From assembly GCA_965248695.1 (NCBI GenBank), contig CBDFKD010000002.1, forward strand, positions 1,792,001 to 1,856,000: DNA of 64,000 nt. The letters are read 5' to 3'. The translations under genes and the position numbers were made by a program. The stretch is from Acidobacteriota bacterium (lineage in GTDB: Bacteria; Acidobacteriota; UBA890; WLXD01). Positions 17,168 to 50,492 of this stretch are shown piece after piece; the first letter of the stretch is position 1; each line of letters starts with the position of its first letter. The notes under the pieces were generated by a model. The model was not told the DNA's origin. It saw nothing but the letters and a program-made list of their open reading frames with translations, and ran no database searches.

Positions 17168-17182
17168 CGGAAAAGAATTACC
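17148..17182. promoter_or_regulatory. Tandem palindromic candidate enhancer sites (GGAAA-N4-TTTCC-like)
   Basis: GGAAAAGCGCTTCG at 17148-17161 and GGAAAAGAATTACC at 17169-17182, 21 bp apart, about 100-130 bp upstream of a sigma-54 promoter. Confidence 0.6.
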
Positions 17183-17276
17183 CACTGAGCCCGGGCAGAG
17201 TCTGAACGGAGGCGGCCAGCTGCGGACATCGACGGGCCTGCCCGAGCCTCCTGGGTGCCGGGCCTCGGTCCCCGGT

Positions 17277-17292
17277 TGGCACACACATTGCT
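17277..17292 (+). promoter_or_regulatory. Sigma-54 (-24/-12) promoter of the EPS plus-strand arm
   Basis: TGGCAC-ACACA-TTGCT, about 50 bp upstream of ATG 17344. Confidence 0.8.
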
Positions 17293-23952: not shown

Positions 23953-23954
23953 CG

Positions 23955-28651: not shown

Positions 28652-31013
28652 GACGAGCCTCCGATAGCTGGTGCGCTTCCTGCGCCAGGCCGGCGGCGAC
28701 GAGAATCCGCTGCGCGTTGTGGTGCCAGGTATGGCGGCGGGCGAGCTGATCGTAGGCAACGCTCGCCAGGCGACGGCGTAGGAACGGCGCCGACAGCATG
28801 CGGTCCACGGTCTGGGTCAAGGCGCTCTCGTCGAGCGGATCGAAGAGCAGAACGCTGACGTCGTCCTCCAGCACGTCTTGAATCCCTGGCAGACGCGGCG
28901 CCACCACCGGGACCCGTCGAGCCATGAGCTCGAACAGAACGATCGGCGAACCGAATATGTTCGAATGCGGCAGGACGGCAACGTCGAGCAACGCCAGATG
29001 ATCGTGGACTTCAGTGCGTGGCACGGCGCCGGTCACGACCACATCGTTTTCCAGACCCAGCTCACGCGCCTTTGCCCGCAGCTGCTCGGCCATCGGTCCG
29101 TCGCCGATCAGCAACGCCGCTAACCCGGGGTAAGCCGGCCTCAGCCGATGCACCGCGTGCAACAGCATGTCGAGCCGATCCCAGTGATCGAACCAGCCGG
29201 CAAACCCGACGACGGTTCGTCCGTGCAGCCCGTACCTGGTAAGCAAGTCCGGACGGCGCGGGCTCGACTGAAGGAGCTGCGGATCAATGGCATTCGGTAC
29301 TACTCGCACTCGCGCCTTGTCCGCGCCCCGCTGTTCGATCAGACGCGCCAGGTAGGAGTTGACGGGCAGGATCGCATCGCATCGGACGAACAAAAAGCGC
29401 TCGAAGCAGCCACAGAGTCGCGGGAATACCTGCAGCCTCGCGCGTTGCTCGATTCCGTTGACCTCGTTGGCCTCGAGAACGAAGCGAATACCGCGACGCC
29501 GCGCCATCCATGCACCCGCAATCAGGTAGAAGGCGTAGCGTTCGTAGATCAGGTCGTACCGCTGCGCGCTCAGGATCTTGCGGAGACGCCACCAGGCCAC
29601 GAGGTTGTATCCGATCTCGGCCAGTTCGAAGAGCGGGGCAGGCAGGTGACGGCTGACCCATTTCCAGAGCGATCCGATTCCGCGCGTCCCTACCGAGGAT
29701 TTGTCGACCGGCGCCATCCCTTCGGTGGCGCGCGCATCGACCGCCGGGGGGCCCGCTATGGTGACGTGGTGTCCCATGGCCTCGAGTGCACGCACGATGC
29801 TGCCAATGTGCACGCTCTCGGCCCCGCGTCCCTGGGTACGGTGGTGGTAGAGGATTCGCAGTCCCGCCGCAGCCGTACGCCTGTCGGCGAACCGCCGGGA
29901 GCCATCGACCGGACCTGAATCATCGTAGATCCGGCCGTAGCACCCGACCATGGCTTCGGCGGAGAAGTGATCCCGGACTCGATCACGACCGCCGGCAACC
30001 AGCTTCGCGGCCAGCGCCGGAGACGTGGACAGTCGCTCGATGGCTGACGCCAGGCCAACCGTGTCGCCGGCTTCGAAGAGCAATGCGCTCTCGCCGTCGA
30101 CAACCGTCTCGGGAACCCCACCGACGCAGGTTGCGATCACCGGCAAGCCCGCCCGCATTGCCTCCAGCAACGCGATCGAGATTCCCTCGTAGCGGGAGCT
30201 CAGGAGGAAGACGTCGGCGTCGGCCAGCAGTTGGGCAACGTCGTTTCTGAAACCCAGAAAGCTCACCATCGACTCCAGGCGCAGCTCAGACGCCCGGCGC
30301 TCGAGGCGCTGCCGCTCGGGGCCGTCACCGACGATGACCAGTCGTGCGCCCGGGAAATCGTCACGCAGCGTCGCCAGCGCCTCCAGCATCAGCTCCTGTT
30401 GCTTGATGGCGTCGAGGCGCCCGACGGTGATGAGCCGCGGACCCGAGACGTTGGTGAACGGGGCCGCCAAGGTGGAGACACCGCGGCTGGAATCGATGCC
30501 GTTGTGAACTGTAGTAACGCGATCGGTGGGCAAGCGCATCACTTCGCGCATATCGGTCGCGATGGATTCGGATACCCCCACGAGCCGGTGGCAACGCCGC
30601 GCCGCAAGCCGCTCGAGCGACCGCCGCAGCCGAGCCTTGGCGCGCTGAACGAGCCCGCTTCCGTGTTTCAGATAGGGACCGTGAGCCGTATGAACGTGGC
30701 GCGCACCCGTCATCCAGGCGGCCAGGGCGCCCTCGAGAAACACTCCCCAGGAGTGCGTGTGGACGACCTCGAATCGGTCGCGGCGCACGAGGCGTGCCAG
30801 CTTGAACGGGACGTTCGCGTCGTTCCCCTCGCCCTTGTCGAACAGAAAGCAGTCGACGCGCGGATCGAGCTCGCCGACGAGCTCGCCGCGCCGCTTCACG
30901 CAACAAATCGCCGACCGGGAAGCGGGCGCCAGGCTGTTCGCGAGGCCCACGACTACGCGCTCGGCGCCGCCGTGCTCGAGCGTCTCCACGACCTGTAGCA
31001 CTGCCGGCTTCAT
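28641..31013 (-). CDS. Tandem double GT4 glycosyltransferase fusion
   Basis: Domain 1: LEHGGAERVV...SSRYEGISIALLEAM; domain 2: RILYHHRTQGRGAESVHI...SPIVLFELMARRVPVV. Confidence 0.88.
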   Translation of the reverse strand: MKPAVLQVVETLEHGGAERVVVGLANSLAPASRSAICCVKRRGELVGELDPRVDCFLFDKGEGNDANVPFKLARLVRRDRFEVVHTHSWGVFLEGALAAWMTGARHVHTAHGPYLKHGSGLVQRAKARLRRSLERLAARRCHRLVGVSESIATDMREVMRLPTDRVTTVHNGIDSSRGVSTLAAPFTNVSGPRLITVGRLDAIKQQELMLEALATLRDDFPGARLVIVGDGPERQRLERRASELRLESMVSFLGFRNDVAQLLADADVFLLSSRYEGISIALLEAMRAGLPVIATCVGGVPETVVDGESALLFEAGDTVGLASAIERLSTSPALAAKLVAGGRDRVRDHFSAEAMVGCYGRIYDDSGPVDGSRRFADRRTAAAGLRILYHHRTQGRGAESVHIGSIVRALEAMGHHVTIAGPPAVDARATEGMAPVDKSSVGTRGIGSLWKWVSRHLPAPLFELAEIGYNLVAWWRLRKILSAQRYDLIYERYAFYLIAGAWMARRRGIRFVLEANEVNGIEQRARLQVFPRLCGCFERFLFVRCDAILPVNSYLARLIEQRGADKARVRVVPNAIDPQLLQSSPRRPDLLTRYGLHGRTVVGFAGWFDHWDRLDMLLHAVHRLRPAYPGLAALLIGDGPMAEQLRAKARELGLENDVVVTGAVPRTEVHDHLALLDVAVLPHSNIFGSPIVLFELMARRVPVVAPRLPGIQDVLEDDVSVLLFDPLDESALTQTVDRMLSAPFLRRRLASVAYDQLARRHTWHHNAQRILVAAGLAQEAHQLSEARRAS

Positions 31014-32077
31014 GCCGCCTCCTTGGCGCCCAAGGGCGCTGTCGCGAGCTCACGCACCTTGGAGTACATCTCCCAGGCGGTCACATAGTGCAGCCGACAG
31101 TCCTCGACATCCCGAAACTGACTCTCGAGCTCCGTCCACAGCGTCTCGAAACCGCCGTTGAACAGCATGTGCTGGCACGTTGGCTGCGCGCCGTGCGTGT
31201 GGAGCTTGATAAAGACGTGCGACTCGGCGCCCGCCACGCTGACGCCGACATCGCCCCACAGGCGAACCCGCTCCGGCGTCGGCGGACAGTCCGGCGCCAC
31301 CTCGCCGTTCTCGATACGCGGCAGCAAACCGAACTTTCGCCGCTTCCAGTTGAGCGTCAGCGGCCCCTGAATGAGGACGATCTCGTCGGCGCGACGCCAA
31401 TCTCCGATAGCCACGTCGCGACCCTTGTCATGCGATTTGCGATGACCGGGACGCCCCTTGGCGCAATAGATCGAGTTCACTTTTCGGGTCTGTGTGGCAC
31501 TCGGTGCCGAGGGCATGGTCATGTCCACGCGGCAGCCGGTCTCAACGAGCACCGCGAGCTCGTTATCGACTCCGCACCAGCGTCCGTCGGGCCGCGAGTT
31601 GTCGAGCGCCCAGTTGCCGTGAACGAATCCGTAGACGATCTCGCCGGACACCGGGTCGCGCCGCAAAAGACCGTGGCGCTGGCTCAGAGTTTGCGTGAAC
31701 GCCAGCAGCTTGGCGCGCAGCGATGCCGGGGTGTCGTGATCGTGATGCAGATGCACCTCGACGTCACCCAGACGACGATCAGCGAAGTCCGCCAGCACGT
31801 CGAGGACCTCGCTGTCGTACTCCTCTTCTGGGTAGAAGAACGTATGCTGTGGCGACCGGCCCTCGCTGTCGTGGTGCCTGGCTGCGAGCTCCGGATATGT
31901 AGTCTGCCAGGCGTGTACTCGGTCGCGCGCTTGATCGCGCGACGCGCCCTGCCAGTAGGGCTCGTAATGGTCCGCAACGCAGACGTAGATGTCTCGCACT
32001 CCGGCGGCCGAGCGCGCCCGGGTAAGCTCACGCTGGGCCCACGCCGGGAACCAGAGGTTGGCGTTGCGCGGCATCAT
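31010..32077 (-). CDS. Hypothetical protein, possible metal-dependent carbohydrate esterase
   Basis: His/Asp/Glu-rich motifs ADHYEP, HTFFYPEEEY, EVHLHH, FVHGNWALDNS, KLHTHGA, HYVTAWEMY; translationally coupled on both sides. Confidence 0.7.
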   Translation of the reverse strand: MMPRNANLWFPAWAQRELTRARSAAGVRDIYVCVADHYEPYWQGASRDQARDRVHAWQTTYPELAARHHDSEGRSPQHTFFYPEEEYDSEVLDVLADFADRRLGDVEVHLHHDHDTPASLRAKLLAFTQTLSQRHGLLRRDPVSGEIVYGFVHGNWALDNSRPDGRWCGVDNELAVLVETGCRVDMTMPSAPSATQTRKVNSIYCAKGRPGHRKSHDKGRDVAIGDWRRADEIVLIQGPLTLNWKRRKFGLLPRIENGEVAPDCPPTPERVRLWGDVGVSVAGAESHVFIKLHTHGAQPTCQHMLFNGGFETLWTELESQFRDVEDCRLHYVTAWEMYSKVRELATAPLGAKEAA

Positions 32078-39028: not shown

Positions 39029-40328
39029 TGCTGAGAGGATTGAAGCCTGGCGCGCTCGACGATCCGATCGGGGCCGGGTTCAGCTGTAGGCGGACGCCAA
39101 CCGCGATGCGATAGGTGTCTACCCCCTGGCCCTGCAGATCTGCTCCGCCAATCTGGTGCGCCTGAAGCGCCATGCCAACTACCGAGATTCCGTTCGCCAC
39201 GCGCACCCCGCCTCCGACGCGTGTCGTCCATGTATCGATGGCGTCCGGGGAGGAGAATCCAGGCGATGCACCGGCAGAACTGAGCGGGTGGTTGCGGGCG
39301 AAGCCGAAGTGTCCAATCAGGCTCCATCGCTGTGTTTGCGTGCCAATGCTGCCGGTAGCGCGGTCGCGGATCGTGGGGCGGCCGATTCCGGTAGTGAACC
39401 CGACGTCGCGTTCTGCCAGCAACCCGAGCGCTACACGATCCACGGCGTGGCTCAGCCGAGCACTGGCGATGTAGCCCGGCGAGCCGACAGCGTCGCCGAA
39501 CCCGGGAGCGTCGATATCCTGCAGCTCCTACAGCCACAGCACCCCGCCACGAATACGGAGCCGGGTTTGCAGCCCCACGCGATAGTCGACGCCGGCGCTG
39601 GCCGATGCGGTGCGTGCTTTCGATCCGTTGTCGAATCGACCCAGGCTGGCGCTCACACCGGCGGACAGCGAAACGCGCTCGGTCACTCCGCGGCCGTAGT
39701 CAACCGACACCGAATAGTCGTCGCTGCCGGTGAGGGAGGCCTCGGTCGGCTCCTCATCCGGGAATCGCACCCGTCGGTATCGGGCCGTCAACGAGACACT
39801 GTCGCGCGGCGTCAGCTGGTGCTGAAGCGCCGCATCGACGTCAGCGCGGGCCTGTCGTGATCGCGGCACGACGATCTCGGTGGCGTCGAGCCCACGGAGC
39901 TCATTCGAGACGTACGCATCACCGTTCAGGAGGAACCGCGTCCGCGGCGATAGCTCACCGACGATTGACACGCGCCCCGACTGCTCGAAGTTGCTCGCGA
40001 TCTGGCTATCGTTGTAGCGCTGATAGCCGGGGCTATAGCTGAGGTCGGCGCTCCATCTCGGGCCCCGGAACTGGAACGGCAAGTCAGCGCTCACCGCCAG
40101 CACCCCGGACTCGCGGGGGTCGCCGGCCAGTCTCAAGGGGTTGCTCGTGAGGCTGCCGAGAATCGTCAGCGCTGGCGCGAAGGTAGAGCGGTTGTCGACC
40201 TGAAGCGTACCCGCCTGTGGGCTCGATGTGGACTGCGCCAACGCGAAGCCGGACGGGCTCACCGCTGTGGCCACGGCCACGAGCGCTGCGACCAGCCACG
40301 CGAAGCTCACGCTCCGGCGCGTCGACAA
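39000..40328 (-). pseudogene. Outer-membrane beta-barrel of EPS export, interrupted by in-frame TAG at 39528-39530
   Basis: Signal peptide ending ALA-Q; alternating beta-strand pattern; ORFs 39528..40391 and 39000..39443 share a frame and the sequence between them is open. Confidence 0.68.
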
Positions 40329-40335
40329 CGCTTCA

Positions 40336-41559
40336 TTAGGGCACATAGATGACGTCTCCCGCTTGCAGCACGAGCTCGCCCGTATCGGCACGACCCTTCA
40401 TCACATCGCCGTAGCGGTAGGGAATGCGCACCCGCTGATTGCCGACAGTGCGCAGGATCGTTACGCCGTTCTGGTTGGCGAACTCGGTGGGGCCACCTGC
40501 CATCGAGATCGCCTGCAACACGTTGATGTTGCGATCGAGCGTGACCGGGCCCGGCTGGCCAACACGGCCGAGGACGTACACGACCAGGCTCTTGATGTCG
40601 GTGACGGAGACCGTCACGGTAGGCATCTGGACGAAATCGAGCAGCAGGCTGGTGATCTCGGATTCCAGCTGGGCCGCGGTCTTTCCGGCAGCCTTCAGCT
40701 CGCCCACGAGGGGCAACGAGATGTAGCCATCGGGACGCACTGGGACCCGCCGGCTCAGTTCCTCGTTGCGCCAAACGAACACGTCGACCTGATCGCCCGG
40801 GCCGAGCCGGTAGTCACCGCTCGCGAACGATCTCGGCCGCGTCGATTGCCTGTCGAACGAAGCCCCGAGCCCGGCGAAGTCGTCTGTCGGCGCGTAGGCT
40901 AGCATCGCAGGCGCCGCAGGCGTCCGACGAAGTGCGCTGGCAGACATCGGTGCCGGAATCGGCGCAGACTGCCCATGGCTCTGCATCGCCCCGTTCATCG
41001 AGGCCTGGCGTGGAAGCCGGCGTTGCACGACCGGCGACACAGGCGGCAGATCGACGACCGTGGGCCCGCCCGCCTGAGCGGCACTATTGCTCGACAGGTA
41101 GGCGCGTACGCCAGCAAGCTCGGCGACATCCGTGGAACGCTGGCCCAGCACAGGCGCCTGATCCGGCGACGCAGGCCACAGACTGTTTTGCTGCGGCAGC
41201 CACGCGACGCCGTCGTCCGCCATCCAGCTCGAATCACCGCCGACGTAGGGACCCGCGAGCACATCGCTCGGGACGACACCGGTCGAACGTCCGGGAAGGC
41301 TCATTACCAACGCTGATCCGGGCGTGTTGGTGATGAAGACGCGATCTTCGCCGGCCGCTGTCGAGACACTCATGGGAGCATCCGCCACACGGACGGGAAT
41401 CGAGCTATTCGTCGAAGCCACGACACGCACCGGGATTCGCGGCTGCGAGCCCACTCGCGGACGGGCGGCCTGCTGGGCGGTGGTCGCTCCCGGCACCAAG
41501 AGTAGGCCGATAAGTCCCAGCGCCGCGACAGCGCGTCCAGCTCGACGTTCGACGTGCAT
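40336..41559 (-). CDS. Polysaccharide export (OPX/Wza-family) protein with long low-complexity N-terminus
   Basis: DYRLGPGDQVDVFVW, VRPDGYISLPLVGELKAAGKT, SLBB motif LQAISMAGG, LQAGDVIYVP; SD GGAGAG before ATG 41559. Confidence 0.88.
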   Translation of the reverse strand: MHVERRAGRAVAALGLIGLLLVPGATTAQQAARPRVGSQPRIPVRVVASTNSSIPVRVADAPMSVSTAAGEDRVFITNTPGSALVMSLPGRSTGVVPSDVLAGPYVGGDSSWMADDGVAWLPQQNSLWPASPDQAPVLGQRSTDVAELAGVRAYLSSNSAAQAGGPTVVDLPPVSPVVQRRLPRQASMNGAMQSHGQSAPIPAPMSASALRRTPAAPAMLAYAPTDDFAGLGASFDRQSTRPRSFASGDYRLGPGDQVDVFVWRNEELSRRVPVRPDGYISLPLVGELKAAGKTAAQLESEITSLLLDFVQMPTVTVSVTDIKSLVVYVLGRVGQPGPVTLDRNINVLQAISMAGGPTEFANQNGVTILRTVGNQRVRIPYRYGDVMKGRADTGELVLQAGDVIYVP

Positions 41560-41627
41560 CGATCTCTCCGCGGACGCGCCTGTCGGCAGCGCCCCGTTTG
41601 GACTCTGGTTCAAGCAGACATCCTCTG

Positions 41628-41643
41628 TGCAATCGCCGTGCCA
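41628..41643 (-). promoter_or_regulatory. Sigma-54 promoter of the long EPS minus-strand arm
   Basis: TGGCAC-GGCGA-TTGCA on the minus strand, about 70 bp upstream of the OPX ATG. Confidence 0.82.
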
Positions 41644-41778
41644 CCTCGAACGGCGGATCGTGCTCTGACGAGAGTCGGCGAACGCCGCGTATGTCGCTTT
41701 GTTCATTGAACTTCCGATGTGTCGGTGGCGACGCCCGGCGATCCGGCCGAAGGCTGGACACTGGAGGCTCCGCGCCGG

Positions 41779-41814
41779 GGAAAAAGGCTTCCGAGCGATG
41801 GGAAAAGAATTTCC
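41779..41814. promoter_or_regulatory. Tandem palindromic candidate enhancer sites
   Basis: GGAAAAAGGCTTCC at 41779-41792 and GGAAAAGAATTTCC at 41801-41814, 22 bp apart. Confidence 0.62.
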
Positions 41815-41815
41815 A

Positions 41816-42739
41816 CTACTCACCGGATGGGTGTTGCGGCGCCAGCGCCCGCAGCTTCGTGGACAGCGCCTTGTAGCTGATCCCGAGCAACGCCGCGGCC
41901 CGATGTCGATCGCCCGCAACGGATTCGAGCGCGCGCGCCAGCCACGAGCGTTCGGCATCTCGGACCACGAGTCGACGAATCTCCTTGAGTCGCACAGGTT
42001 GGCCTTGCTCGAGTGCTTCGAAAGCAGCTGTCTTCGGTTCAAGCGCCCAATCGCCGGCTACAGCACCGGTAAGTCGGCGCACCTCGAGGCGAGCGGCCAC
42101 CCGTGCGTCTCGCTGACGGACGGCGGCAGCGGCGAAGGAGTCAATGTCGGCCAGCGCTCCCGGCCATCGATAACCGCGCAGGTAGCTGAGCGCTCGATCG
42201 ACGCCCCAGGGCAACGCCAGACTGCCGTCTTGCGTATGCCTGGCGAGGTAGTGGTCGAGCAGCGGCGGCAGGTCCGCGTCTCGGTTGCGCAGCGGTTGTA
42301 GATCGACCGCAATCAGCCGATCACGGAGAGCGCGCAGCAAGGATTCGTCGCCTCCGGAGCTGACCGCCAGGATGCGCGCGGTGCGGCGCGATGCGCGCTC
42401 GATCCGTTCTGCCACGTCGAGTTGCGCCGACGCCGCTAGGCGGCCAGGCTCGGCGATCAGGAGCGATCCGCACGCCGCCCGTTTGCAGGCGACGCCAAGC
42501 TCGGCAATTTGATCCTCTGCGGAGCGCTTTCCGAGCGACGTCCCGGCCACCTCCACCAGAGGCGCCTGAGCTCTTCCCGCCCGGTGCAGGGTCGACGCGA
42601 CCCAGCAACGCCCCCCTCCGGGCTCTCCTCTGAAGATCACGCCCACCGGAACGGCCGCCAGGCGATCGATCGTGCGGGCGAGGCCGGATTCCGGAGGCGT
42701 AGGATACGCGACGCTCCGGATATCTATCGGGGAATCCAT
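41816..42739 (-). CDS. Degenerate sigma-54 activator-like protein with Fis-type HTH
   Basis: VIFRGEPGGGR (no Lys), no GAFTGA, LLIAE in place of Walker B; retains PLRNRDADLP and YRWPG; HTH RAAALLGISYKAL. Confidence 0.78.
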   Translation of the reverse strand: MDSPIDIRSVAYPTPPESGLARTIDRLAAVPVGVIFRGEPGGGRCWVASTLHRAGRAQAPLVEVAGTSLGKRSAEDQIAELGVACKRAACGSLLIAEPGRLAASAQLDVAERIERASRRTARILAVSSGGDESLLRALRDRLIAVDLQPLRNRDADLPPLLDHYLARHTQDGSLALPWGVDRALSYLRGYRWPGALADIDSFAAAAVRQRDARVAARLEVRRLTGAVAGDWALEPKTAAFEALEQGQPVRLKEIRRLVVRDAERSWLARALESVAGDRHRAAALLGISYKALSTKLRALAPQHPSGE

Positions 42740-42752
42740 GTGGGCGCTTTAG

Positions 42753-42768
42753 TGCAAGCGATATGCCA
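42753..42768 (-). promoter_or_regulatory. Sigma-54 promoter of the pseudo-activator
   Basis: TGGCAT-ATCGC-TTGCA on the minus strand, 13 nt upstream of ATG 42739. Confidence 0.78.
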
Positions 42769-42886
42769 CGCCCGGGGCGGAAACAGGCCGTCTCCTAGCG
42801 CAACGCTGACACGGTCGTGGGCGTGTCCTGGCCCCTCCTGCCCGGCAAGCTCAAGAAGCGCCAGGCCAGAGCTATGTGGCCAGGAG

Positions 42887-42900
42887 GGAAAGAGTTTTCC
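42887..42900. promoter_or_regulatory. Palindromic candidate enhancer site
   Basis: GGAAA-GAGT-TTTCC with perfect arms, about 120 bp upstream of the 42753 promoter. Confidence 0.6.
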
Positions 42901-42971
42901 CCCTATGGGCACCTAGCAGGCCGTGGTGGAAGTGTGGCGCCCACGCATCGGAGCAGCGAGTTCGCGTAGGT

Positions 42972-44324
42972 TCAGGCGGCGCTGATGCCGCAGTCGCGAA
43001 TCTTGTAGAGCAGGGCCTTGTAGCTGATATGCAGGAGCTCGGCCGCCTTGCGGCGGTTCCAACGTGTCTGCTCGAGCGCCCGGCGGATAAGCTCGCCCTC
43101 GACTTCCAGCGCCGCCAATCGCGAAACCTCTTTGAGCGGCGGGATGGTCCCCTCTGCACCGATCAGCGCATCCACGTCGAAACGGCTCGCGGCTGGCTCC
43201 GGCCTTGAAACCAGTGACTCGATGCTGCCTTCGACGTCCTCGAGAACCACCATACGCCGGATCAAATTTTGTAGCTCACGAACGTTGCCCGGCCAGTCGT
43301 GCTGCGACAGTGCCTCCAGCGTCTGCTGTGACAGCAACCCCAGGCTGCGCTCGTACTCGCGCTCATAGCGACGCACGAAGTGCTGCGCCAGCAGCGGGAT
43401 CTCATCGCGACGCTGGCGCAAAGGCGGCACTTCGACGCGAACGACGTTCAAACGGTAGAACAGATCCTTGCGGAATGAGCCCTCGAAGATCTCTTGCTCC
43501 AGGTCCCGATTGGTCGAGGCAACGACACGGGCGTCGATGTTCATCTCGCACTTGGCCCCAAGTCGATAGTAACTGCCGTCCTGCAACACCTGCAGCAGCT
43601 TCGCCTGTGTTCCGCCAGCGATCTCACCGATCTCGTCGAGCAAGATCGTGCCGCCGTTGGCGAGCTCGAACTTCCCCGGCTTGTCGCGATCGGCGCCGGT
43701 AAAAGCGCCGCGCTCGTAGCCGAACAACTCCGACTCCAGCAGCTGGTCAGGCAGCGCGGGACAGTTGACCTTGACGAACGCACCGGTCGAGCGGCCCGAA
43801 AAGCGGTGCAGCTCACGTGCGACAACTTCCTTACCCACACCACTGTCGCCTGTGATCAGCACCGGGACATCCGTATCGGCCACCTGTCGAACCAACTCGC
43901 GTATCGCACGCATCGGCGCCGAGCCCACCACCAGCTCGTCGCCGCCAAGACTGACAGCCGACTCCAGGAGCCGAACCAATGCCGCATCGATGGCATCGCA
44001 GGCGCCGGCGCGCCTGATTCCCGCGACGCGCTCGCGCTGCGTCAGCGAGTCCATGCCGACGCTATCGAGCTCGTCGCACAGCAGCAGCACCGGAATCGAT
44101 CGACCCGCTGCTTGCAGCGCGTCGAGGGCTCCCTCCAACGAGTCTTCATGGTCGGCATCGAACACGATTGCCTGCGGACGGAAGCCGTTGCGTAGCACTT
44201 CGAGCGCCTCTGTGCGGCTGCTTGCCGCGACGACGCGATATCCGCTTCCGTGCAACGTCGCCCGCAGGCGCGCACCGCCCGGACCGCGATCGACGAGCAA
44301 GATTTTCTTGGGGTCGCGAGTCAT
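42972..44324 (-). CDS. Sigma-54-dependent activator (bEBP) with atypical receiver-like domain
   Basis: ITGDSGVGKE, ESELFGYERGAFTGA, ILLDEIGE, FRKDLFYRLNV, WPGNVREL, Fis HTH; SD GGAGGT before ATG 44324. Confidence 0.92.
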   Translation of the reverse strand: MTRDPKKILLVDRGPGGARLRATLHGSGYRVVAASSRTEALEVLRNGFRPQAIVFDADHEDSLEGALDALQAAGRSIPVLLLCDELDSVGMDSLTQRERVAGIRRAGACDAIDAALVRLLESAVSLGGDELVVGSAPMRAIRELVRQVADTDVPVLITGDSGVGKEVVARELHRFSGRSTGAFVKVNCPALPDQLLESELFGYERGAFTGADRDKPGKFELANGGTILLDEIGEIAGGTQAKLLQVLQDGSYYRLGAKCEMNIDARVVASTNRDLEQEIFEGSFRKDLFYRLNVVRVEVPPLRQRRDEIPLLAQHFVRRYEREYERSLGLLSQQTLEALSQHDWPGNVRELQNLIRRMVVLEDVEGSIESLVSRPEPAASRFDVDALIGAEGTIPPLKEVSRLAALEVEGELIRRALEQTRWNRRKAAELLHISYKALLYKIRDCGISAA

Positions 44325-44501
44325 GCCGACCTCCCAGGTACTAGGGCTGACAGGAATCGGCTGACCCCAGACGGTGAGGCCAGTCGGTCGCAAATCAACC
44401 TATGGGAATCGGATTACCCACAGCAATCCAGAATGTTTCCCACCCTCGACTCGACAGTGATCGAGCGGACAGGAGTTGCGTCTGCTGTGCAGAAGTGCGC
44501 C

Positions 44502-45542
44502 TCAGATTGCGCCCGCTCCGCGTAGCAAGCGCTCGACTGCGCGCTCCCAGGAATGGCGTTGCGCCACCCCGAGACCCGTTCGACCCAGCTCGGGGGCCAC
44601 ATCGGACCGAGTCGCACGCCGCAATGCGGCAGCCACCCCTGCAGGCTCCGGCGACACCACGAATCCCGTCTCGCCGTCGACCACCAGTTCGGCCGGGCCA
44701 CCAGAATCGACACACGTGATCACTGGCTTGGCGGAGCTGAACGCCTCCAGTGTAACGAGGCCATAGTCTTCCGACTCAGCGCCATACCAGACTGCCGAGC
44801 AGCGCGCGTACGCCTCGACGAGCTCAGGCTCGGTGAGGCGACCGAGGAACTCGACTCGGTCACTGATCCGCAGGGACTCCGCCAGCCCGCGCAAGCGCGC
44901 TGCCTCCGGCCCCTCGCCGGCAACGCGAATCGCAACGCCCGGCGCTTCGGCTGCCGCCCGTAGCAACAACGCATTGCGCTTGAGCGGCTGGAGCCGCGCC
45001 ACTGAAAGCACTGCGCCGTCGTAGCCGTCACAGCGATAGGGGCGCTGCGGCGCAGGAGGATGAAGGACCTCGGCCTCGGTGCCACCCCAGCGCTCGAGGC
45101 GGCGACGTATGGTTTCGGATTGCGCGAAGACCTTTCGGCTCCTGCCCAGAAGGCGCCGGTCGAGGCGGTGCAGGAGTCGCCGGCGCGCGCCTTCGACCAG
45201 GCGGCCGCGCACTCCGAGATTGACGCGGAAGCTCTGCCAGAGATCGTAGTACTCGCGCATCCGGTGGTTCAGCCAGACCACGTGATGCGGATGCCGCACG
45301 GCGTAGGACGGAAAGCGCAAGCTGATGACCACATCGATCGGCTCGCCGTCGCCGGTTACGCCGACGTCGGTGAGCCAGGTCGCCAGGTAGGCTGAGAACT
45401 GCCGTCCGAACCGGTTCTGCGGGGTGGTCAGCACCTCCGCGGAGTGGCCCTGGTCGCGCAGCGCACGGACCAGCGAACGGGCGATGACACGGTGCCCACC
45501 CTCCACCAACGGCACGTCGGAAGTAACTACGAGGGCTCGCAA
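44502..45542 (-). CDS. Glycosyltransferase family 4
   Basis: VPLVEGG, HRMREYYDLW, RLQPLKR, EDYGLVTLEAFSSAKPVITCVDSGGP. Confidence 0.88.
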   Translation of the reverse strand: MRALVVTSDVPLVEGGHRVIARSLVRALRDQGHSAEVLTTPQNRFGRQFSAYLATWLTDVGVTGDGEPIDVVISLRFPSYAVRHPHHVVWLNHRMREYYDLWQSFRVNLGVRGRLVEGARRRLLHRLDRRLLGRSRKVFAQSETIRRRLERWGGTEAEVLHPPAPQRPYRCDGYDGAVLSVARLQPLKRNALLLRAAAEAPGVAIRVAGEGPEAARLRGLAESLRISDRVEFLGRLTEPELVEAYARCSAVWYGAESEDYGLVTLEAFSSAKPVITCVDSGGPAELVVDGETGFVVSPEPAGVAAALRRATRSDVAPELGRTGLGVAQRHSWERAVERLLRGAGAI

Positions 45543-46868: not shown

Positions 46869-49106
46869 ATGATCCACAGCACAGCAGCCGATCGACAACG
46901 CCGCGCGCGCCATCGCACCCTGATCGTCATCGGTCTGGTGCTTGTCGTGGCAACGTTCATCGCCGTCGAGATCGCCCTGCAGCAGTCCACCGACAGCTGG
47001 CTGCCGGTGTCGAACACGGTGCTGATCCACGCCATCACTGTAATCAACATCGTGCTCTTGCTGGTTCTTCTGCTGGTGCTGGGCCGGAACCTGATCAAGC
47101 TCTACGTCGATCGCCGCCACCGGAAGCTCGGCTCCAGATTCCAGACCAAGCTAATGGCGACCTACGTCGGCTTGTCGCTCGTGCCTACCATCATCCTCTT
47201 TCTCGTCGGCAGCGACTTCATCCAGAAGAGCGTCGATCGATGGTTTTCCAAGGAGGTCACGTCCGTCCATCAGCGCGCTCGTGACCTCGTGCGCGAGGCT
47301 TCCGAGGTCCAGCAACAACAATTGCTCGACATCGGTGCGGCATTTGCCGACGAGATCACCACGGGGCGCCTGTTTCCGAACGAGGCCTGGCAGCTCCTGA
47401 GCCGTGAAATGGGGCGCAAGCTGGAGCTCGCTTACCTCGACATCGACGCCGTGGCCATCTATCGGGACGCGGAGCAGCCGCATGCGCCGGTACTGCGCGC
47501 CGACAGCTTCCTGCAGGGGCGCGAATACCTCCTCAACATTCCGAGCACCTCGATTCTGATGGGTATGTCGGGACAGCCCTTCCGCCACGACACCGAGATC
47601 GAAGGCGGCAACCGACTGGTGCTCGCTGGTGTCCCTATCTACGCGCCCTCCGACCGTCAGGTCGACGGGGTTCTGGTAGTAGCGCGGGTAATCGATGGGG
47701 CGCTGGCAGCGGAGCTCGCTTCGGTCCTCGAGATCTACGCCGACTACACGCAGGGCATCGAGGAAAAGGAACCCATCACCAACGCCTACATCCTCACCTT
47801 CCTGCTACTGAGCCTGCTGATCGTATTCGGCGCGGTCTGGCTCGGGCTGTATCTGGCAAAGGGGGTGACGGGGCCGATACGGAGTCTCTCGGAAGGTACC
47901 CGCGCGGTCGCCGCTGGCAACCTCGATTATCGGGTACAGGTCGAGACCAACGATGAGCTCGGAGCGCTGGTGGAGTCATTCAACCGCATGACCGGGGATC
48001 TCGCGGTCAGCCAGCACAACTTGGAACAATCTCGAACCGAGCTCGAGGGCAGCATCGGCGAGCTCGAGGAGCGTCGCGGTTACATGGAGTCGGTGCTGGC
48101 GAACATCGCCACCGGCGTAGCCTCGATGAACTCCGACGGGCAAATCACGACGTTCAATCGTGCCGCCGCCGACATGCTCGGTATCGACGCCCCGGCGGCC
48201 GTAGGCAGGCCGTACGGAGAGGTGTTCGCGGGCGACAGCTTCACCGAGCTACGGACGCTCATCCGCCACGCGCGCCCGCGGCTGGCGGCGGTCGAAGAGG
48301 AGCTCAAGGTCGAGGCCGCCGGCGAGCGTCTGACGCTGGCGGTGCACTGTTCGAGCCTGCGCGACAAATCGAGCGACTATCTCGGAACGGTCGTGGTGCT
48401 CGATGACCTCACCGGTCGGATTCGAGCTCAGAAAGTCGCCGCGTGGCGTGAGGTGGCGCGCCGGATAGCGCATGAGATCCGCAATCCGTTGACGCCCATC
48501 CAGCTGTCAGCCCAGCGGATCGCCAGACGCTACAAACGCGCCGCCGGAGCCGAGGACGAGTACGCCGTCATCGACGAAGGGACGCGCACGATCCTCCAGG
48601 AGGTCGGCACGCTGAAGGCCCTGGTCGACGAATTCAGCCGTTTCGCGCGCATGCCCTCTGCCAACCCCGTGGCTTCCGATCTGCACCAGATCCTGGACGA
48701 CAGCCTGCTTACGTACCCTGAGCTTCATCCGGAGCTCGAGATCAAACGCCGCTTCGCTGACGACGTGCCCCCGCTGCAACTGGATCCAGACCAGATGCGG
48801 CGAGCGTTCACCAATCTCTACGACAATGCGATCAAGGCGATGTCAGGTAATGGACAGTTGAATGTCACCACGGTTTTCGACGCCGACCTGGAGGTGGTGC
48901 GAGTCGAGGTGGCCGACAACGGCCCCGGGATCCGGCCGGAAGACAAGGATCGTCTATTCGTCCCCTATTTCTCGCGTGAGCGCGACGGGACCGGATTGGG
49001 CCTCGCAATCGTGCGCCAAATCGTCTCGGATCACCGCGGCTACATACGCGTCGTCGACAACGTGCCGCACGGCGCTACCTTTGTCGTCGAGTTGCCGACC
49101 AGCTGA
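46869..49106 (+). CDS. NtrY-like membrane sensor histidine kinase (HAMP-PAS-HisKA)
   Basis: LGSRFQTKL, SVDRWF, HAMP DELGALVESFNRM, AWREVARRIAHEIRNPLTPIQLSAQR, GTGLGLAIV. Confidence 0.9.
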   Translation: MIHSTAADRQRRARHRTLIVIGLVLVVATFIAVEIALQQSTDSWLPVSNTVLIHAITVINIVLLLVLLLVLGRNLIKLYVDRRHRKLGSRFQTKLMATYVGLSLVPTIILFLVGSDFIQKSVDRWFSKEVTSVHQRARDLVREASEVQQQQLLDIGAAFADEITTGRLFPNEAWQLLSREMGRKLELAYLDIDAVAIYRDAEQPHAPVLRADSFLQGREYLLNIPSTSILMGMSGQPFRHDTEIEGGNRLVLAGVPIYAPSDRQVDGVLVVARVIDGALAAELASVLEIYADYTQGIEEKEPITNAYILTFLLLSLLIVFGAVWLGLYLAKGVTGPIRSLSEGTRAVAAGNLDYRVQVETNDELGALVESFNRMTGDLAVSQHNLEQSRTELEGSIGELEERRGYMESVLANIATGVASMNSDGQITTFNRAAADMLGIDAPAAVGRPYGEVFAGDSFTELRTLIRHARPRLAAVEEELKVEAAGERLTLAVHCSSLRDKSSDYLGTVVVLDDLTGRIRAQKVAAWREVARRIAHEIRNPLTPIQLSAQRIARRYKRAAGAEDEYAVIDEGTRTILQEVGTLKALVDEFSRFARMPSANPVASDLHQILDDSLLTYPELHPELEIKRRFADDVPPLQLDPDQMRRAFTNLYDNAIKAMSGNGQLNVTTVFDADLEVVRVEVADNGPGIRPEDKDRLFVPYFSRERDGTGLGLAIVRQIVSDHRGYIRVVDNVPHGATFVVELPTS

Positions 49107-49115
49107 GCCGCGACG

Positions 49116-50492
49116 GTGAGCGAGTCTGGTCGGATTCTGGTCGTCGACGACGAGCCCAATGTGCGCGCCACGCTGAAGGGCGTGCTCGGCGACGAAGGAT
49201 ACGAGGTCGTCGCAGTCGGCAGCGGCGAGGAGAGTCTAGCGGAGCTCGGGCGCGGTGACTACGACCTCGTTCTGCTCGACATCTGGCTACCGGCGATGGA
49301 TGGGCTCGAGGTCCTCGAGCAGATCGGTGGCGCGAACACCGAGTGCGAGGTGGTGATGATCTCCGGGCACGGAAGCATCGACGCCGCGGTCAAGTCGACC
49401 AAGCTCGGGGCGTTCGACTTCATCGAGAAGCCGCTATCTCTCGACCGCGTGCTGCTAGTGGTTGCGAACGCGGTACGACAGCGGCGGCTGGTGCGCGAAA
49501 ACTTGGAGCTGCGAGCCGAGGTCAGCGGTCGCGTCGACATCGTCGGCGACAGTGAACAGATCGTAGCGCTGCGCCGGCAAGTTGATCGAGCCGCACCGAG
49601 CAACGGACGCGTCCTGATCTTCGGCGAGAACGGCACCGGCAAGGAGCTCGTGGCGCGGCGAATTCATGCGCTTTCGAACCGACACGCGGCGCCGTTCGTC
49701 GAAGTGAACTGTGCCGCGATCCCGGACGAGCTCATCGAGAGTGAGCTCTTCGGCCACGTGAAAGGCGCCTTTACCGGTGCGGTTGCCGACAAGGCGGGGA
49801 AATTCGAGCTCGCCGACGGCGGCACGCTATTTCTCGACGAGGTCGGCGACATGAGCCTCAAGACCCAGGCCAAGGTGCTTCGCGTGCTCGAGGAACAGCG
49901 CTTCCAGCCGCTGGGCTCGAACAACACGTTGGACGTCGATGTGCGGGTCATCGCCGCAACAAACAAGGACCTCAGCGCGGCGATCGCGGACGGCTCTTTC
50001 CGTGAAGACCTCTACTACCGTCTCAACGTCATCCCGTTCCATGTACCGCCGTTGCGCGCCCGACGCGACGACATACCGCTGCTGGCTGATCGCTTCCTGC
50101 GGGACCTGGGAACGGAGTACCAGCGAACCCCGAAGCGCTTGAGTCAAGAGGCGGTTGCGTTGTTAGTGAGCCATCGATGGCCGGGCAACGTCCGGGAACT
50201 GCGCAATGTCTGTGAGCGCGCGGTGATCATGGCGGCGACAGATGTGATCACGGACTCGGACGTCGAAACGATGGTTGAAGAGCCGCTCACGGCATCGTCA
50301 GCGCTCGATCAGGACCTCTCGTTGCGGGCTGCCCGCGAGATCTTCGAACGCCGATTGATCATGGCGAAGCTACGCGAGTTCGGCGGCAGCGTTCGTCAGG
50401 CGGCTGGCGCGCTGGGCATCGAACGCAGCCATCTGTATCGCAAGCTGAAAGCCTACGGAATCGATCCGACGGAGACCGTCAACGGTACCTGA
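49116..50492 (+). CDS. NtrX-like sigma-54 response regulator
   Basis: ILVVDDE, LLDIWLP, MISGHG, FIEKP, GENGTGKE, GAFTGA, HTH IERSHLYRKL. Confidence 0.92.
   Translation: MSESGRILVVDDEPNVRATLKGVLGDEGYEVVAVGSGEESLAELGRGDYDLVLLDIWLPAMDGLEVLEQIGGANTECEVVMISGHGSIDAAVKSTKLGAFDFIEKPLSLDRVLLVVANAVRQRRLVRENLELRAEVSGRVDIVGDSEQIVALRRQVDRAAPSNGRVLIFGENGTGKELVARRIHALSNRHAAPFVEVNCAAIPDELIESELFGHVKGAFTGAVADKAGKFELADGGTLFLDEVGDMSLKTQAKVLRVLEEQRFQPLGSNNTLDVDVRVIAATNKDLSAAIADGSFREDLYYRLNVIPFHVPPLRARRDDIPLLADRFLRDLGTEYQRTPKRLSQEAVALLVSHRWPGNVRELRNVCERAVIMAATDVITDSDVETMVEEPLTASSALDQDLSLRAAREIFERRLIMAKLREFGGSVRQAAGALGIERSHLYRKLKAYGIDPTETVNGT

What the first reader, a model, noticed from the sequence alone, without database searches (positions are those of the whole stretch)
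41816..44324. Activator plus catalytically dead paralog with the same recognition helix: candidate sigma-54 feedback brake
Seen: the upstream bEBP is intact (GKE, GAFTGA, DE, REL). The downstream gene lacks a sensory domain, the Walker A Lys, GAFTGA, the Walker B Asp and the sensor II Arg, yet its C-terminus matches the activator (LKEIRR..ALE...RHRAAALLGISYKAL vs LKEVSR..ALE...RRKAAELLHISYKAL). It has its own sigma-54 promoter and a copy of the shared dyad. Inference: the activator induces a decoy that competes for the same enhancers or poisons hexamers, giving a negative-feedback timer on EPS synthesis. I know of no description of this arrangement, but could not search.
Basis: partly seen in the sequence, partly recalled or inferred. 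Interest (0 to 1): 0.85.

Follow-up and report, generated by a model that had tools for sequence, protein, structure and literature searches.

The report
Dead activator paralog in EPS locus
Next to a sigma-54 activator of a polysaccharide-export gene cluster in a soil-type Acidobacteriota genome sits a conserved, enzymatically crippled copy of that activator, switched on by the activator's own kind of promoter, which most likely tunes the activator down but has not been tested.

Summary
Window 42972-44324 (-) encodes a sigma-54 activator (bEBP) with an intact AAA+ core. Window 41816-42739 (-) encodes a 307-aa relative with no sensory domain and no GAFTGA loop. Its Walker A has K->R, Walker B has D->A, and sensor I and sensor II are lost. 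Its HTH is, genome-wide, most like the neighbouring activator's.

The paralog has a consensus sigma-54 promoter 13 nt before its ATG and a GGAAA-N4-TTTCC dyad 118 nt upstream. The same dyad, in tandem, precedes the sigma-54 promoter of the next gene, a Wza-like exporter of an XrtA/PEP-CTERM-type EPS locus.

The paralog is not decaying. It is intact in 4 of 5 genomes of the genus, with dN/dS about 0.2 overall and 0.06-0.13 for the HTH. It belongs to a small clade of GAFTGA-less pseudo-ATPases, several of which have lost the HTH. A sister genus has the activator and the Wza promoter but no paralog.

I therefore read it as a dispensable, activator-induced modulator that acts mainly through its AAA+-like domain, most likely by poisoning activator rings. 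The sign of its effect is inferred, not shown. It is a new variant of known kinds (anti-activators, paralogous bEBP hetero-oligomers).

The parts
42972..44324 (-). Activator bEBP gene (450 aa). Domains: receiver-like, about 43953-44324; AAA+ core, 43425-43922; lid, 43209-43424; HTH, 42990-43139.
   Evidence: Sigma54_activat 217 bits, AAA_lid_14 76.5, HTH_8 39.1, and no Response_reg hit. Walker A, GAFTGA, Walker B, sensor I, sensor II and R-finger strings all present. AAA+ and HTH nearly invariant across 9 orthologs; omega 0.04-0.11 for the AAA core, 0.01-0.05 for the HTH and 0.26-0.56 for the receiver-like part.
42887..42900 (.). Single GGAAA-N4-TTTCC dyad (putative enhancer/UAS), 118 nt upstream of the paralog's promoter.
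   Evidence: Kept exact at the same place in the four genus-level genomes; 1-2 mismatches in G008 and G007.
42753..42768 (-). Sigma-54 promoter of the paralog, TGGCATATCGCTTGCA. The ATG begins 13 nt after TTGCA.
   Evidence: The same site and the same 13-nt spacing occur in all 6 genomes that carry the paralog. rpoN is present in the genome.
41816..42739 (-). Degenerate paralog gene (307 aa). Domains: AAA+-like core, about 42335-42697; lid, 42110-42334; linker; HTH, 41846-41983.
   Evidence: Motifs and homology. AlphaFold2 model with mean pLDDT 79.7 and blocks of residues 11-170 mostly 86-96; top Foldseek hits are ZraR (1ojl), NtrX, NtrC1, PspF and VpsR; omega about 0.2.
41779..41814 (.). Two tandem dyads: an exact one at 41801-41814 and a one-mismatch one at 41779-41792. 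They begin 2 nt after the paralog's stop codon and form the putative UAS of the Wza promoter.
   Evidence: The tandem TGGAA..TTTTCCC / CGGAAGC.TTTTTCCC block is conserved in G000-G003. Related TTTCC-rich blocks follow the activator's stop codon in the paralog-less genus.
41628..41643 (-). Sigma-54 promoter of the Wza-like gene, TGGCACGGCGATTGCA.
   Evidence: An equivalent site is present in every relative inspected.
40336..41559 (-). Wza-like polysaccharide export gene, first of the EPS operon. The start at 41559 follows a GGAGAG Shine-Dalgarno.
   Evidence: Poly_export and SLBB; the best NCBIfam hit is the XrtA/PEP-CTERM export protein, 143 bits, below its cut-off of 180; start coordinate.
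17169..17292 (+). Third putative target. A one-mismatch dyad at 17169-17182, with a weaker copy just upstream, and the sigma-54 promoter TGGCACACACATTGC at 17277-17291, ahead of the priming glycosyltransferase gene 17344-18807.
   Evidence: TIGR03013 at 395.6 bits, over its cut-off of 393.35. The next gene scores 353.9 bits for TIGR03006, also over its cut-off.

Best explanation
The 307-aa protein is a pseudo-subunit of the neighbouring sigma-54 activator: an AAA+ fold that can no longer hydrolyse ATP or touch sigma-54, plus an activator-like HTH.

The activator binds the GGAAA-N4-TTTCC enhancers and fires three sigma-54 promoters. These drive the Wza-led EPS operon, the priming-glycosyltransferase operon, and the paralog itself from a single-dyad promoter.

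Once made, the paralog joins the activator, which lowers the number of productive hexamers and damps EPS gene expression. It would do so by co-assembling through the AAA+-like domain, helped in this genus by binding the same enhancer through its HTH. The result is an activator-induced negative feedback.

Shown: the anatomy, the conservation, the purifying selection, the promoter and enhancer sharing, and the dispensability in a sister genus.

Inferred: that the activator binds the dyad, that the two proteins co-assemble, and that the net effect is negative.
For: 1. Catalytic and sigma-54-contact elements are lost clade-wide by different routes. Of 15 aligned members, 0 have a GAFTGA-like string, 0 have both a Walker A Lys and a Walker B DE, and 0 have the sensor II Arg. 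The Walker A to Walker B distance is 47-54 residues against 65 in the activator. The fold is nevertheless a confident bEBP AAA+ domain.

2. The gene is under purifying selection rather than decaying. Pairwise omega among 4 genomes is 0.18-0.23 overall, 0.20-0.28 for the AAA-like core and 0.06-0.125 for the HTH, with dS 0.6-1.2.

3. Its regulation is coupled to the activator. A consensus sigma-54 promoter is found in 6 of 6 genomes carrying the gene, with the dyad upstream. The same dyad precedes the Wza promoter. In the paralog-less genus a related TTTCC-rich block sits right after the activator's stop codon, so the enhancer belongs to the activator.

4. The HTH specifically resembles the activator's: the two are reciprocal best hits genome-wide.

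5. The paralog is dispensable. Genus g3 (3 of 3 genomes) has a 59-61% identical activator directly followed by the Wza promoter, and the family profile finds no member there. This argues against an obligate co-activator.

6. HTH-less members keep the AAA+-like domain, which points to a protein-protein mechanism.

7. Complex prediction of the activator AAA+ domain with the paralog's AAA-like domain gave weak support. The score was 0.57 and the best of 3 controls 0.00. The mark was reached by 116 of 157 solved complexes and 2 of 215 mismatches, but scores at or under 0.60 came from only 18 of those 157 solved complexes and from both mismatches that passed. The runs agree in at least 60% of contacts and the partner's pLDDT is at least 83. 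bEBP rings are solved, so this pass may reflect likeness only.

8. There is precedent that an inactive paralog blocks an active bEBP in hetero-oligomers: RedR1/RedR2 (PMC10084136, section 8 read). Trans-acting negative regulators are also a recurring bEBP theme: PspA and HrpV (PMC3105312, passages) and FleN (abstract start).
Against: - No measurement of any kind bears on the sign of the effect.
- The complex score is weak, and a resemblance to solved homomeric rings could produce it.
- In the tree the clade does not branch from the local activator. It is separate from all ordinary bEBPs sampled (93/93), so origin by duplication of this particular activator rests on the HTH likeness alone.
- Both R-finger-region arginines are kept in this genus (LRALRDRL). 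That would also suit a subunit supporting ATP hydrolysis in its neighbour, as a structural co-activator would.
- Most orthologs keep Walker B DE and an Arg in the P-loop, so nucleotide binding, and hence a sensing role, is not excluded.
- The recognition helix differs from the activator's at 2 of 9 positions. One of them is variable among the paralogs (T/A/E), so identical DNA specificity is not assured.
Confidence: 0.48

Rival explanations
1. Pure DNA-level brake. The paralog does not enter activator rings. It simply occupies the shared dyads as a non-activating dimer and so excludes the activator from its enhancers.
For: The HTH is the most constrained domain in this genus (omega 0.06-0.125). 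It is the activator HTH's reciprocal best match genome-wide. The dyad is shared between the paralog's promoter and the Wza promoter.
Against: Related members keep the AAA+-like domain, the position between activator and Wza, and the sigma-54 promoter, yet lack any HTH. This holds for G007 at 254 aa and for the G008-like P0028. HTH-less rows fall in three places on the tree. The AAA-like core is itself under purifying selection (omega 0.20-0.28), which a mere DNA-binding decoy would not need.
Confidence: 0.15
2. Positive partner. The paralog is a structural subunit or assembly factor of a hetero-oligomeric activator, in the manner of HrpR/HrpS or FleQ/FleT. This would give positive feedback on EPS genes.
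For: The genes are tandem paralogs, as with HrpR and HrpS, where 'partial paralogue degeneration' accompanies an active hetero-hexamer (PMC3105312, abstract and passages). The R-finger-region arginines are retained. The activator has a receiver-like domain without a phospho-acceptor in most orthologs, so it may need another input. The predicted contact has weak support: 0.57 against a best control of 0.00, with the calibration counts given under the best explanation.
Against: In HrpRS both sigma-54-binding motifs are required, whereas here the loop is deleted. Genus g3 has the activator and the Wza promoter without the paralog. In RedR1/2, hetero-oligomers with an inactive partner gave no activation. 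FleQ/FleT is recalled from memory and was not looked up.
Confidence: 0.15
3. Independent regulator of the TyrR/DhaR/HupR/VpsR kind. On this view the paralog is a GAFTGA-less bEBP homologue that uses its HTH at sigma-70-type promoters, or as a classical repressor elsewhere. Its degenerate P-loop would bind a nucleotide or second messenger as the signal.
For: GAFTGA-less homologues are known to act with sigma-70, and VpsR regulates polysaccharide genes (PMC3162934, passages; PMC6158489, abstract start). VpsR (7v2b) is among the structural matches. The P-loop glycines and a basic residue are kept, and 5 of 7 orthologs keep DE.
Against: The paralog has no sensory N-terminal domain. The only exact dyads followed by promoters genome-wide are the two local sigma-54 ones. 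The HTH-less relatives cannot be DNA-binding regulators.
Confidence: 0.12
4. Decaying duplicate with no function.
For: Catalytic motifs are lost. The gene is absent from one genome of the genus and from a sister genus.
Against: The frame is intact in 4 of 4 genus-level genomes that hold the locus and in further metagenome proteins. Omega is about 0.2 at dS 0.6-1.2. The promoter and its spacing are conserved across three genera. In G004 the activator is missing too.
Confidence: 0.03

Closest known systems
HrpR/HrpS of Pseudomonas syringae (tandem paralogous bEBPs forming a hetero-hexamer)
   Same: The genes are tandemly arranged paralogs made of AAA+ plus HTH. One partner is partly degenerate, and subunit-specific roles are proposed (PMC3105312, abstract and passages).
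   Different: Both Hrp proteins keep, and need, the sigma-54-binding motif, and they activate together. Here the L1/GAFTGA loop is deleted. That the hrp genes are co-transcribed is recalled, not read; here the paralog has its own sigma-54 promoter. A sister genus lacks the paralog altogether.
RedR1/RedR2 of Aromatoleum anaerobium (interacting paralogous bEBPs)
   Same: Hetero-oligomers form through the central domains, and an inactive form of one paralog abolishes activation by the active one (PMC10084136, abstract and section 8).
   Different: RedR1 and RedR2 are near-identical, fully competent activators whose inactivity is conditional. Here the inactivity is hard-wired in the sequence.
Non-homologous trans-acting negative regulators of bEBPs: PspA (PspF), HrpV (HrpS), FleN (FleQ), NifL (NifA)
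   Same: The proposed logic is the same: a protein that binds the activator's AAA+ domain and restrains it. That some of these are also induced by their target activator is recalled, not read. The restraint itself is supported by PMC3105312 passages and by the abstract starts of PMC8528422 and PMC12998190 in the listings.
   Different: None of them is a bEBP homologue. The present protein is a degenerate copy of the activator family itself, and Pfam and NCBIfam give no hit to those families.
GAFTGA-less bEBP homologues TyrR, DhaR, HupR and VpsR
   Same: They have an AAA+ bEBP fold without a working sigma-54 contact loop. VpsR controls polysaccharide genes (PMC3162934 passages; structural match 7v2b).
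   Different: Those keep N-terminal sensory domains (recalled, not read) and act as stand-alone sigma-70-dependent regulators. This protein has no sensory domain, sits under a sigma-54 promoter beside an intact activator, and shares that activator's enhancer.

Membership tests
Bacterial enhancer-binding protein / sigma-54 activator (Pfam PF00158) | Score over the family's gathering cut-off | tested here: not met
   The paralog scores 15.1 bits against a cut-off of 20.2. The activator scores 217.4 bits.
Bacterial enhancer-binding protein / sigma-54 activator (Pfam PF00158) | GAFTGA (L1) loop that contacts sigma-54 | tested here: not met
   No GAFTGA-like string in the paralog or in any of the 15 clade members. 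The Walker A to Walker B distance is 52 residues against 65 in the activator.
Bacterial enhancer-binding protein / sigma-54 activator (Pfam PF00158) | Catalytic set: Walker A Lys, Walker B Asp-Glu, sensor I Asn, sensor II Arg | tested here: not met
   The changes are K->R, D->A (DE is kept in 5 of 7 orthologs), N->S and R->A.
Bacterial enhancer-binding protein / sigma-54 activator (Pfam PF00158) | AAA+ fold of the bEBP type with a C-terminal Fis-type HTH | tested here: met
   The AlphaFold2 model has mean pLDDT 79.7. Foldseek's best hits are ZraR 1ojl (E 3e-10), NtrX, NtrC1 and PspF. HTH_8 scores 30.8 bits against a cut-off of 22.
Trans-acting negative regulator (anti-activator) of a bEBP (functional class: PspA, HrpV, FleN, NifL) | Binds the activator's AAA+ domain and lowers its output | tested here: inconclusive
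   Only a prediction is available: weak support at 0.57, best of 3 controls 0.00. The mark was reached by 116 of 157 solved complexes and 2 of 215 mismatches, but scores at or under 0.60 came from 18 of those 157 and from both passing mismatches. Run agreement is at least 60% and partner pLDDT at least 83. The pass may stem from likeness to solved rings. Output was not measurable here.
Trans-acting negative regulator (anti-activator) of a bEBP (functional class: PspA, HrpV, FleN, NifL) | Expression driven by the activator it restrains (feedback). This is a feature of the model proposed here; that it holds for some known members is recalled, not read. | tested here: inconclusive
   A sigma-54 promoter plus the shared dyad is conserved in 6 of 6 genomes. 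No RNA holder was listed, so dependence on the activator is inferred.
HrpR/HrpS-type co-dependent paralog pair | Both partners carry a functional sigma-54-binding motif and are mutually required | tested here: not met
   The loop is deleted in the paralog. Genus g3 has the activator and the Wza promoter without a paralog. The requirement in HrpRS is from PMC3105312 passages.
TyrR/DhaR/HupR/VpsR-type sigma-70-dependent bEBP homologues | N-terminal sensory or regulatory domain retained (recalled, not read); acts at sigma-70 promoters | tested here: not met
   The paralog's alignment to the activator begins at residue 14 of the paralog and residue 135 of the activator. The local promoters are sigma-54 type, and no sigma-70 consensus was found in 41500-44700. 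Promoter usage itself cannot be tested with these tools.
PrsR, PEP-CTERM-box response regulator (TIGR02915), considered for the activator | Score over the equivalog cut-off | tested here: not met
   298.1 bits against a cut-off of 502.6. No Response_reg hit, and no histidine kinase gene lies beside it in the ORFs listed.

The most novel reading that the evidence does not exclude
A small clade of pseudo-bEBPs has evolved as dedicated, activator-induced 'dead subunits'. These would be natural dominant-negative AAA+ proteins that intercalate into their parent activator's ring at the enhancer. They would be made from a leaderless sigma-54 transcript, since the ATG lies at predicted +4 in all six genomes. 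The HTH would be an optional tether, kept in this genus and lost at least three times elsewhere. This would be the first natural case of a sigma-54 activator restrained by a hard-wired inactive copy of itself.
Probability: 0.4. Interest if true: 0.75.

Novelty: new variant of a known kind. Interest (0 to 1): 0.55.

Why it matters
Control of sigma-54 activators is usually described in two ways: cis-acting sensory domains, or unrelated trans-acting negative regulators such as PspA, HrpV, FleN and NifL. A conserved, hard-wired inactive paralog placed under the activator's own enhancer and promoter logic would be a third route. It would be a bacterial counterpart of dominant-negative isoforms, and it would give a natural system for asking how many live subunits a bEBP ring needs.

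It also gives a concrete, testable regulatory circuit for XrtA/PEP-CTERM-type exopolysaccharide genes in Acidobacteriota. I know of no such circuit described for this phylum. One literature search found none in the library, but the field was not searched systematically.

Its reach is limited. The clade is rare: 6 of 301 sampled Acidobacteriota genomes, plus a handful of metagenome proteins. The organisms carrying the locus that have a record title are metagenome-assembled genomes.

Tried and rejected
It found nothing for P0052 in genome contigs and nothing for alignment A6 in metagenome contigs. In genome contigs, A6 recovered only the G008 contig and a 43-residue chance-level hit in a Gemmataceae MAG.
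- The listing of cluster members gave no names for 8 members.
- Expression: no RNA holder was listed for window 41500-44500. The 3 holders are DNA-type contigs of one study.
- Rfam gave no credible family in 41000-45000; the one hit was a miRNA model at E 0.74.
- The sigma-70 promoter and terminator scans of 41500-44700 found 0 of each.
- I considered an internal start codon for the paralog (GTG at residue 32) and rejected it. The N-terminal AYP..P.S.L...RL segment is conserved in distant members and is modelled with high confidence.
- I considered a c-di-GMP-binding role by analogy with FleQ and VpsR. No motif-level test was possible and nothing specific supports it.
- The tree could not place the clade's origin next to the local activator.
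- Literature search returned nothing. Searches returned no paper describing a GAFTGA-less dead paralog next to, and induced by, its parent bEBP. Subscription-only papers are outside that library.
- The first script failed on a pattern and was rerun.
Full report
WHAT IS THERE

On the minus strand of the window lie, in order:
- a GT4 glycosyltransferase gene (44502-45542);
- a 450-aa sigma-54 activator gene (42972-44324);
- a 307-aa gene (41816-42739);
- a Wza-like export gene (start 41559);
- genes for a Wzz/GNVR chain-length protein, a tyrosine-kinase-like ATPase, a flippase, glycosyltransferases and deacetylases.

NCBIfam places the locus with the XrtA/PEP-CTERM exopolysaccharide systems. TIGR03013 (395.6 bits) and TIGR03006 (353.9 bits) pass their cut-offs. 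The export and chain-length proteins have those systems' models as best hits, but below cut-off. Close relatives carry record titles of Acidobacteriota MAGs, and the genome has rpoN.

THE TWO PROTEINS

The activator has a canonical AAA+ core, lid and HTH_8, with Walker A, GAFTGA, Walker B, sensor I, R-finger and sensor II strings all present. Its N-terminal domain gets no Response_reg hit. In 7 of the 8 orthologs whose sequence reaches that position, Gly stands where the window's VFDAD has Asp, at the expected phospho-acceptor position. That part evolves at omega 0.26-0.56, against 0.04-0.11 for the AAA core and 0.01-0.05 for the HTH. It therefore looks like a pseudo-receiver. No histidine kinase gene adjoins it.

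The 307-aa protein aligns to the activator from the activator's residue 135 onward, at 25% identity and E 9e-17. Only HTH_8 passes a Pfam cut-off, and no NCBIfam model is reached. The changes, residue by residue:
- Walker A is GEPGGGRC (Lys->Arg).
- The L1/GAFTGA segment is missing: 52 residues separate Walker A from Walker B, against 65 in the activator.
- Walker B is LLIAEPG (Asp->Ala).
- Sensor I is Asn->Ser.
- Sensor II is WPGALADI, with no Arg.
- The R-finger region keeps both arginines (LRALRDRL).

An AlphaFold2 model built on 11 sequences has mean pLDDT 79.7 and pTM 0.67, and the blocks over residues 11-170 are mostly 86-96. Its best PDB matches are bEBP AAA+ domains: ZraR 1ojl at E 3e-10, then NtrX, NtrC1, PspF, FlrC and VpsR.

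- The Walker A Lys is replaced by Arg.
- 5 of the 7 genus-level orthologs covering the site still have Walker B DE.
- The recognition helices are 7 of 9 identical rather than the same.

SPECIFICITY OF THE HTH LIKENESS

I searched the last 60-65 residues of each protein against the six-frame genome. Each finds the other as its best hit (49% over 47 residues, E about 3e-7). After that the activator's HTH finds one further HTH at E 1e-3. The paralog's next hits are E 0.011 or weaker, and those that look like bEBP HTHs are at E 0.14 or more. The shared ISYKAL..K.R string is thus a property of this pair and not of Fis-type HTHs in general.

PROMOTERS AND ENHANCERS

- The paralog is preceded by TGGCATATCGCTTGCA (42753-42768).
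- The Wza gene is preceded by TGGCACGGCGATTGCA (41628-41643).
- The priming glycosyltransferase operon on the other strand is preceded by TGGCACACACATTGC (17277-17291).

The whole genome has only 17 sites of this strength.

The exact dyad GGAAA-N4-TTTCC occurs twice in the window against 0.03 expected. One copy lies 118 nt upstream of the paralog's promoter. The other lies 157 nt upstream of the Wza promoter, where a one-mismatch copy stands in tandem. A one-mismatch copy, with a weaker one beside it, lies about 95 nt upstream of the third promoter. Genome-wide there are 4 exact dyad loci, and only the two local ones are followed by a sigma-54 site.

CONSERVATION OF THE LOCUS

A search of 41 related genomes found clear orthologs at 66-75% identity in G001-G003 of the same genus. 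It found diverged ones (30-35%) in G007 and G008, each lying between an activator ortholog and a Wza-like gene.

The remaining genomes of the family differ as follows:
- G004 (same genus) and G005 lack the activator ortholog as well; their best hit is 44-45%.
- In genus g3 (G006, G009, G010) a 59-61% identical activator is followed directly by the enhancer-like block, the sigma-54 promoter and the Wza-like gene, with no paralog.

In all 6 genomes that have the paralog:
- a sigma-54 promoter precedes it;
- the ATG begins exactly 13 nt after TTGCA;
- the A of the ATG therefore falls at about +4 of the canonical start, which predicts a leaderless or near-leaderless mRNA.

The upstream dyad is exact in the four genus-level genomes and has 1-2 mismatches in G008 and G007.

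SELECTION

Nei-Gojobori estimates on the four genus-level genes give omega 0.18-0.23 overall. By domain they give 0.20-0.28 for the AAA-like core, 0.135-0.355 for the lid, 0.13-0.32 for the linker and 0.06-0.125 for the HTH. dS is 0.5-1.5 and nearing saturation, so the values are rough. The paralog evolves several times faster than the activator but is clearly under purifying selection, with the HTH most constrained.

A WIDER CLADE

The word-based search of 5.8 billion proteins found 8 proteins, including the query, at 64% identity or more. The other 18 hits were ordinary bEBPs at 22-30%.

A profile of the AAA-like part was searched against 1.84 billion representatives. It gave 7 proteins at E <= 1e-30, followed by further short relatives. 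I inspected 15 proteins from that list and aligned 11 of them with 4 close orthologs, which makes 15 rows. In that alignment:
- G38, G43, W46 (the tryptophan two residues after the Walker A Lys/Arg position, as in G.G[RK]xW), D140 and W192-P193 are invariant.
- 0 of 15 rows have a GAFTGA-like string.
- 0 of 15 have both a Walker A Lys and a Walker B DE. The five rows with Lys lack DE, and the two rows with DE have Arg.
- 0 of 15 have the sensor II Arg.

Six of the 15 rows have no HTH at all: P0027 (which is G007's protein), P0028 (76% identical to G008's), P0029, P0030, P0031 and P0035.

In a 23-row tree the 15 form a clade (93/93) apart from the local activators and the other bEBPs. The HTH-less rows fall in three places. 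One caveat is that the HTH columns were part of the alignment.

Several HTH-less proteins end in peptides such as GKSFSHPG or RKLFTQARG. My inference is that these are read-through of a TTTCC-type enhancer just after the gene.

Among 301 sampled Acidobacteriota genomes, the profile found members only in G000-G003, G007 and G008 (E <= 7e-66). The next best score was 2.4e-37, and the lower matches whose open frame I checked were mostly of ordinary bEBP length. This tally includes one unpublished genome, G071, on which nothing else rests.

No source gives any member a name. The ESM Atlas look-up shows that short lid-plus-HTH proteins with a poorly recognisable sigma-54 domain form clusters in several phyla. 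These are leads only.

HOW IT MOST LIKELY WORKS

1. The protein cannot activate. It has no L1 loop, and in every clade member at least one half of the ATPase site is broken.

2. It is kept by selection, and it is wired to the activator's own promoter class and enhancer.

3. It is dispensable for the activator, because genus g3 lacks it. An obligate hetero-hexamer of the HrpRS kind is therefore unlikely. In HrpRS both sigma-54 motifs are required (PMC3105312, passages).

4. The part conserved across the clade is the AAA+-like domain and not the HTH. The common mechanism should therefore be protein-protein contact.

5. Inactive partners are known to block active bEBPs in hetero-oligomers. In RedR1/RedR2 any combination containing an inactive form gave no promoter activity (PMC10084136, section 8).

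6. A two-chain prediction of the activator AAA+ domain (residues 125-372) with the paralog (residues 8-215) gave weak support:
   - The score was 0.57, and the best of 3 controls was 0.00.
   - The mark was reached by 116 of 157 solved complexes and 2 of 215 mismatches.
   - Scores at or under 0.60 came from only 18 of those 157 and from both mismatches that passed.
   - The runs agree in at least 60% of contacts, and the partner's pLDDT is at least 83.
   - Because bEBP rings are solved, this may show likeness only.

Taken together, the best reading is an activator-induced pseudo-subunit that lowers productive ring formation at the enhancer. In this genus it is tethered there by its HTH. The single dyad at its own promoter, against tandem dyads at the two biosynthetic promoters, would fit later or weaker induction, but that is speculation. 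I put this reading at about 0.48. The rivals are:
- enhancer competition alone, 0.15;
- a positive partner, 0.15;
- an independent TyrR/VpsR-like regulator, 0.12;
- a functionless relic, 0.03.

COMPARISON WITH WHAT IS KNOWN

- GAFTGA-less bEBP homologues are known (TyrR, DhaR, HupR, VpsR; PMC3162934, passages). They are stand-alone regulators that work with sigma-70. That they keep sensory domains is recalled, not read.
- Trans-acting negative regulators are known (PspA and HrpV; FleN and NifL, abstract starts in the listings). None of them is homologous to bEBPs.
- Paralogous bEBP hetero-oligomers are known (HrpRS, RedR1/2), but both partners are competent activators.
- A truncated LuxR-type paralog that inactivates TraR (TrlR/TraS) is a conceptual parallel. 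I recall it from memory and did not look it up.

Six full-text searches turned up no description of a hard-wired dead bEBP paralog placed under its parent's enhancer and promoter. The library lacks most subscription journals, so this is not proof of absence.

VERDICT

It is a new variant of known kinds. It would be of moderate interest to sigma-54 and AAA+ specialists, tempered by its rarity and by the lack of any functional data.

Noticed in passing
window 44395-44500 (sense on the minus strand), between the glycosyltransferase stop codon and the activator start codon: A non-coding block is nearly invariant between two genera whose activators are only about 60% identical. It reads TGGATTGCTGTGGGTAATCC..TTCCCATA.GTTG, preceded by TTCTGC.CAGCAGACGCAACTCCTG. 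It has no Rfam match and no sigma-70 consensus. It contains an ATTCCCAT resembling the enhancer half-site, so it may be the activator gene's promoter or operator.
   Followed up: partly
window 42737-42768, and the equivalent places in L002-L006: The paralog's ATG begins exactly 13 nt after the TTGCA of its sigma-54 promoter in all six genomes. This predicts a leaderless or 3-nt-leader mRNA with no Shine-Dalgarno. The Wza-like gene, by contrast, has a leader of about 57 nt and a GGAGAG.
   Followed up: partly
window 43953-44324 (activator N-terminal domain): The receiver-like domain gets no Response_reg hit. In 7 of the 8 orthologs whose sequence reaches that position, Gly stands where the window's VFDAD has Asp. 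It evolves at omega 0.26-0.56. No histidine kinase gene is adjacent, so what switches the activator on is unknown.
   Followed up: partly
window 17147-17292: A third sigma-54 promoter, with one-mismatch and weaker dyads directly after the stop codon of the preceding gene, lies ahead of the TIGR03013 priming glycosyltransferase and the TIGR03006 deacetylase. The putative regulon therefore spans both ends of the EPS locus.
   Followed up: partly
window 46869-50492 (+): An NtrY-like histidine kinase (NtrY_N, HAMP, PAS, HisKA, HATPase_c) is followed by a complete response-regulator bEBP with a normal Response_reg domain. It lies just beyond the EPS regulators and on the opposite strand.
   Followed up: no
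window 60001-64000: G+C falls to 0.57-0.58 from about 0.65, with a more negative GC skew. This may be a foreign or otherwise distinct segment.
   Followed up: no
window 39528-40391, 31010-32077, 22682-24241 (-): Three sizeable ORFs inside the EPS locus have no Pfam or NCBIfam hit. The first lies between the Wza-like and chain-length genes.
   Followed up: no
L033-L035, L037, L039, L049, L052, L055 (genus g45): A set of open frames of about 413-475 aa match the pseudo-bEBP profile over 277 positions with only about 259 residues, scoring 1e-30 to 1e-35. This is slightly better than ordinary bEBPs. They may be another group with a shortened L1 region.
   Followed up: no
ESM Atlas clusters: Clusters of short (231-338 aa) proteins carry AAA_lid_14 and HTH_8 but an unrecognised or only partly recognised sigma-54 domain. 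One has 55 members, commonest in Actinomycetota, and another has 60 members, commonest in Acidobacteriota. Degenerate bEBP-like proteins may be more widespread than this clade.
   Followed up: no
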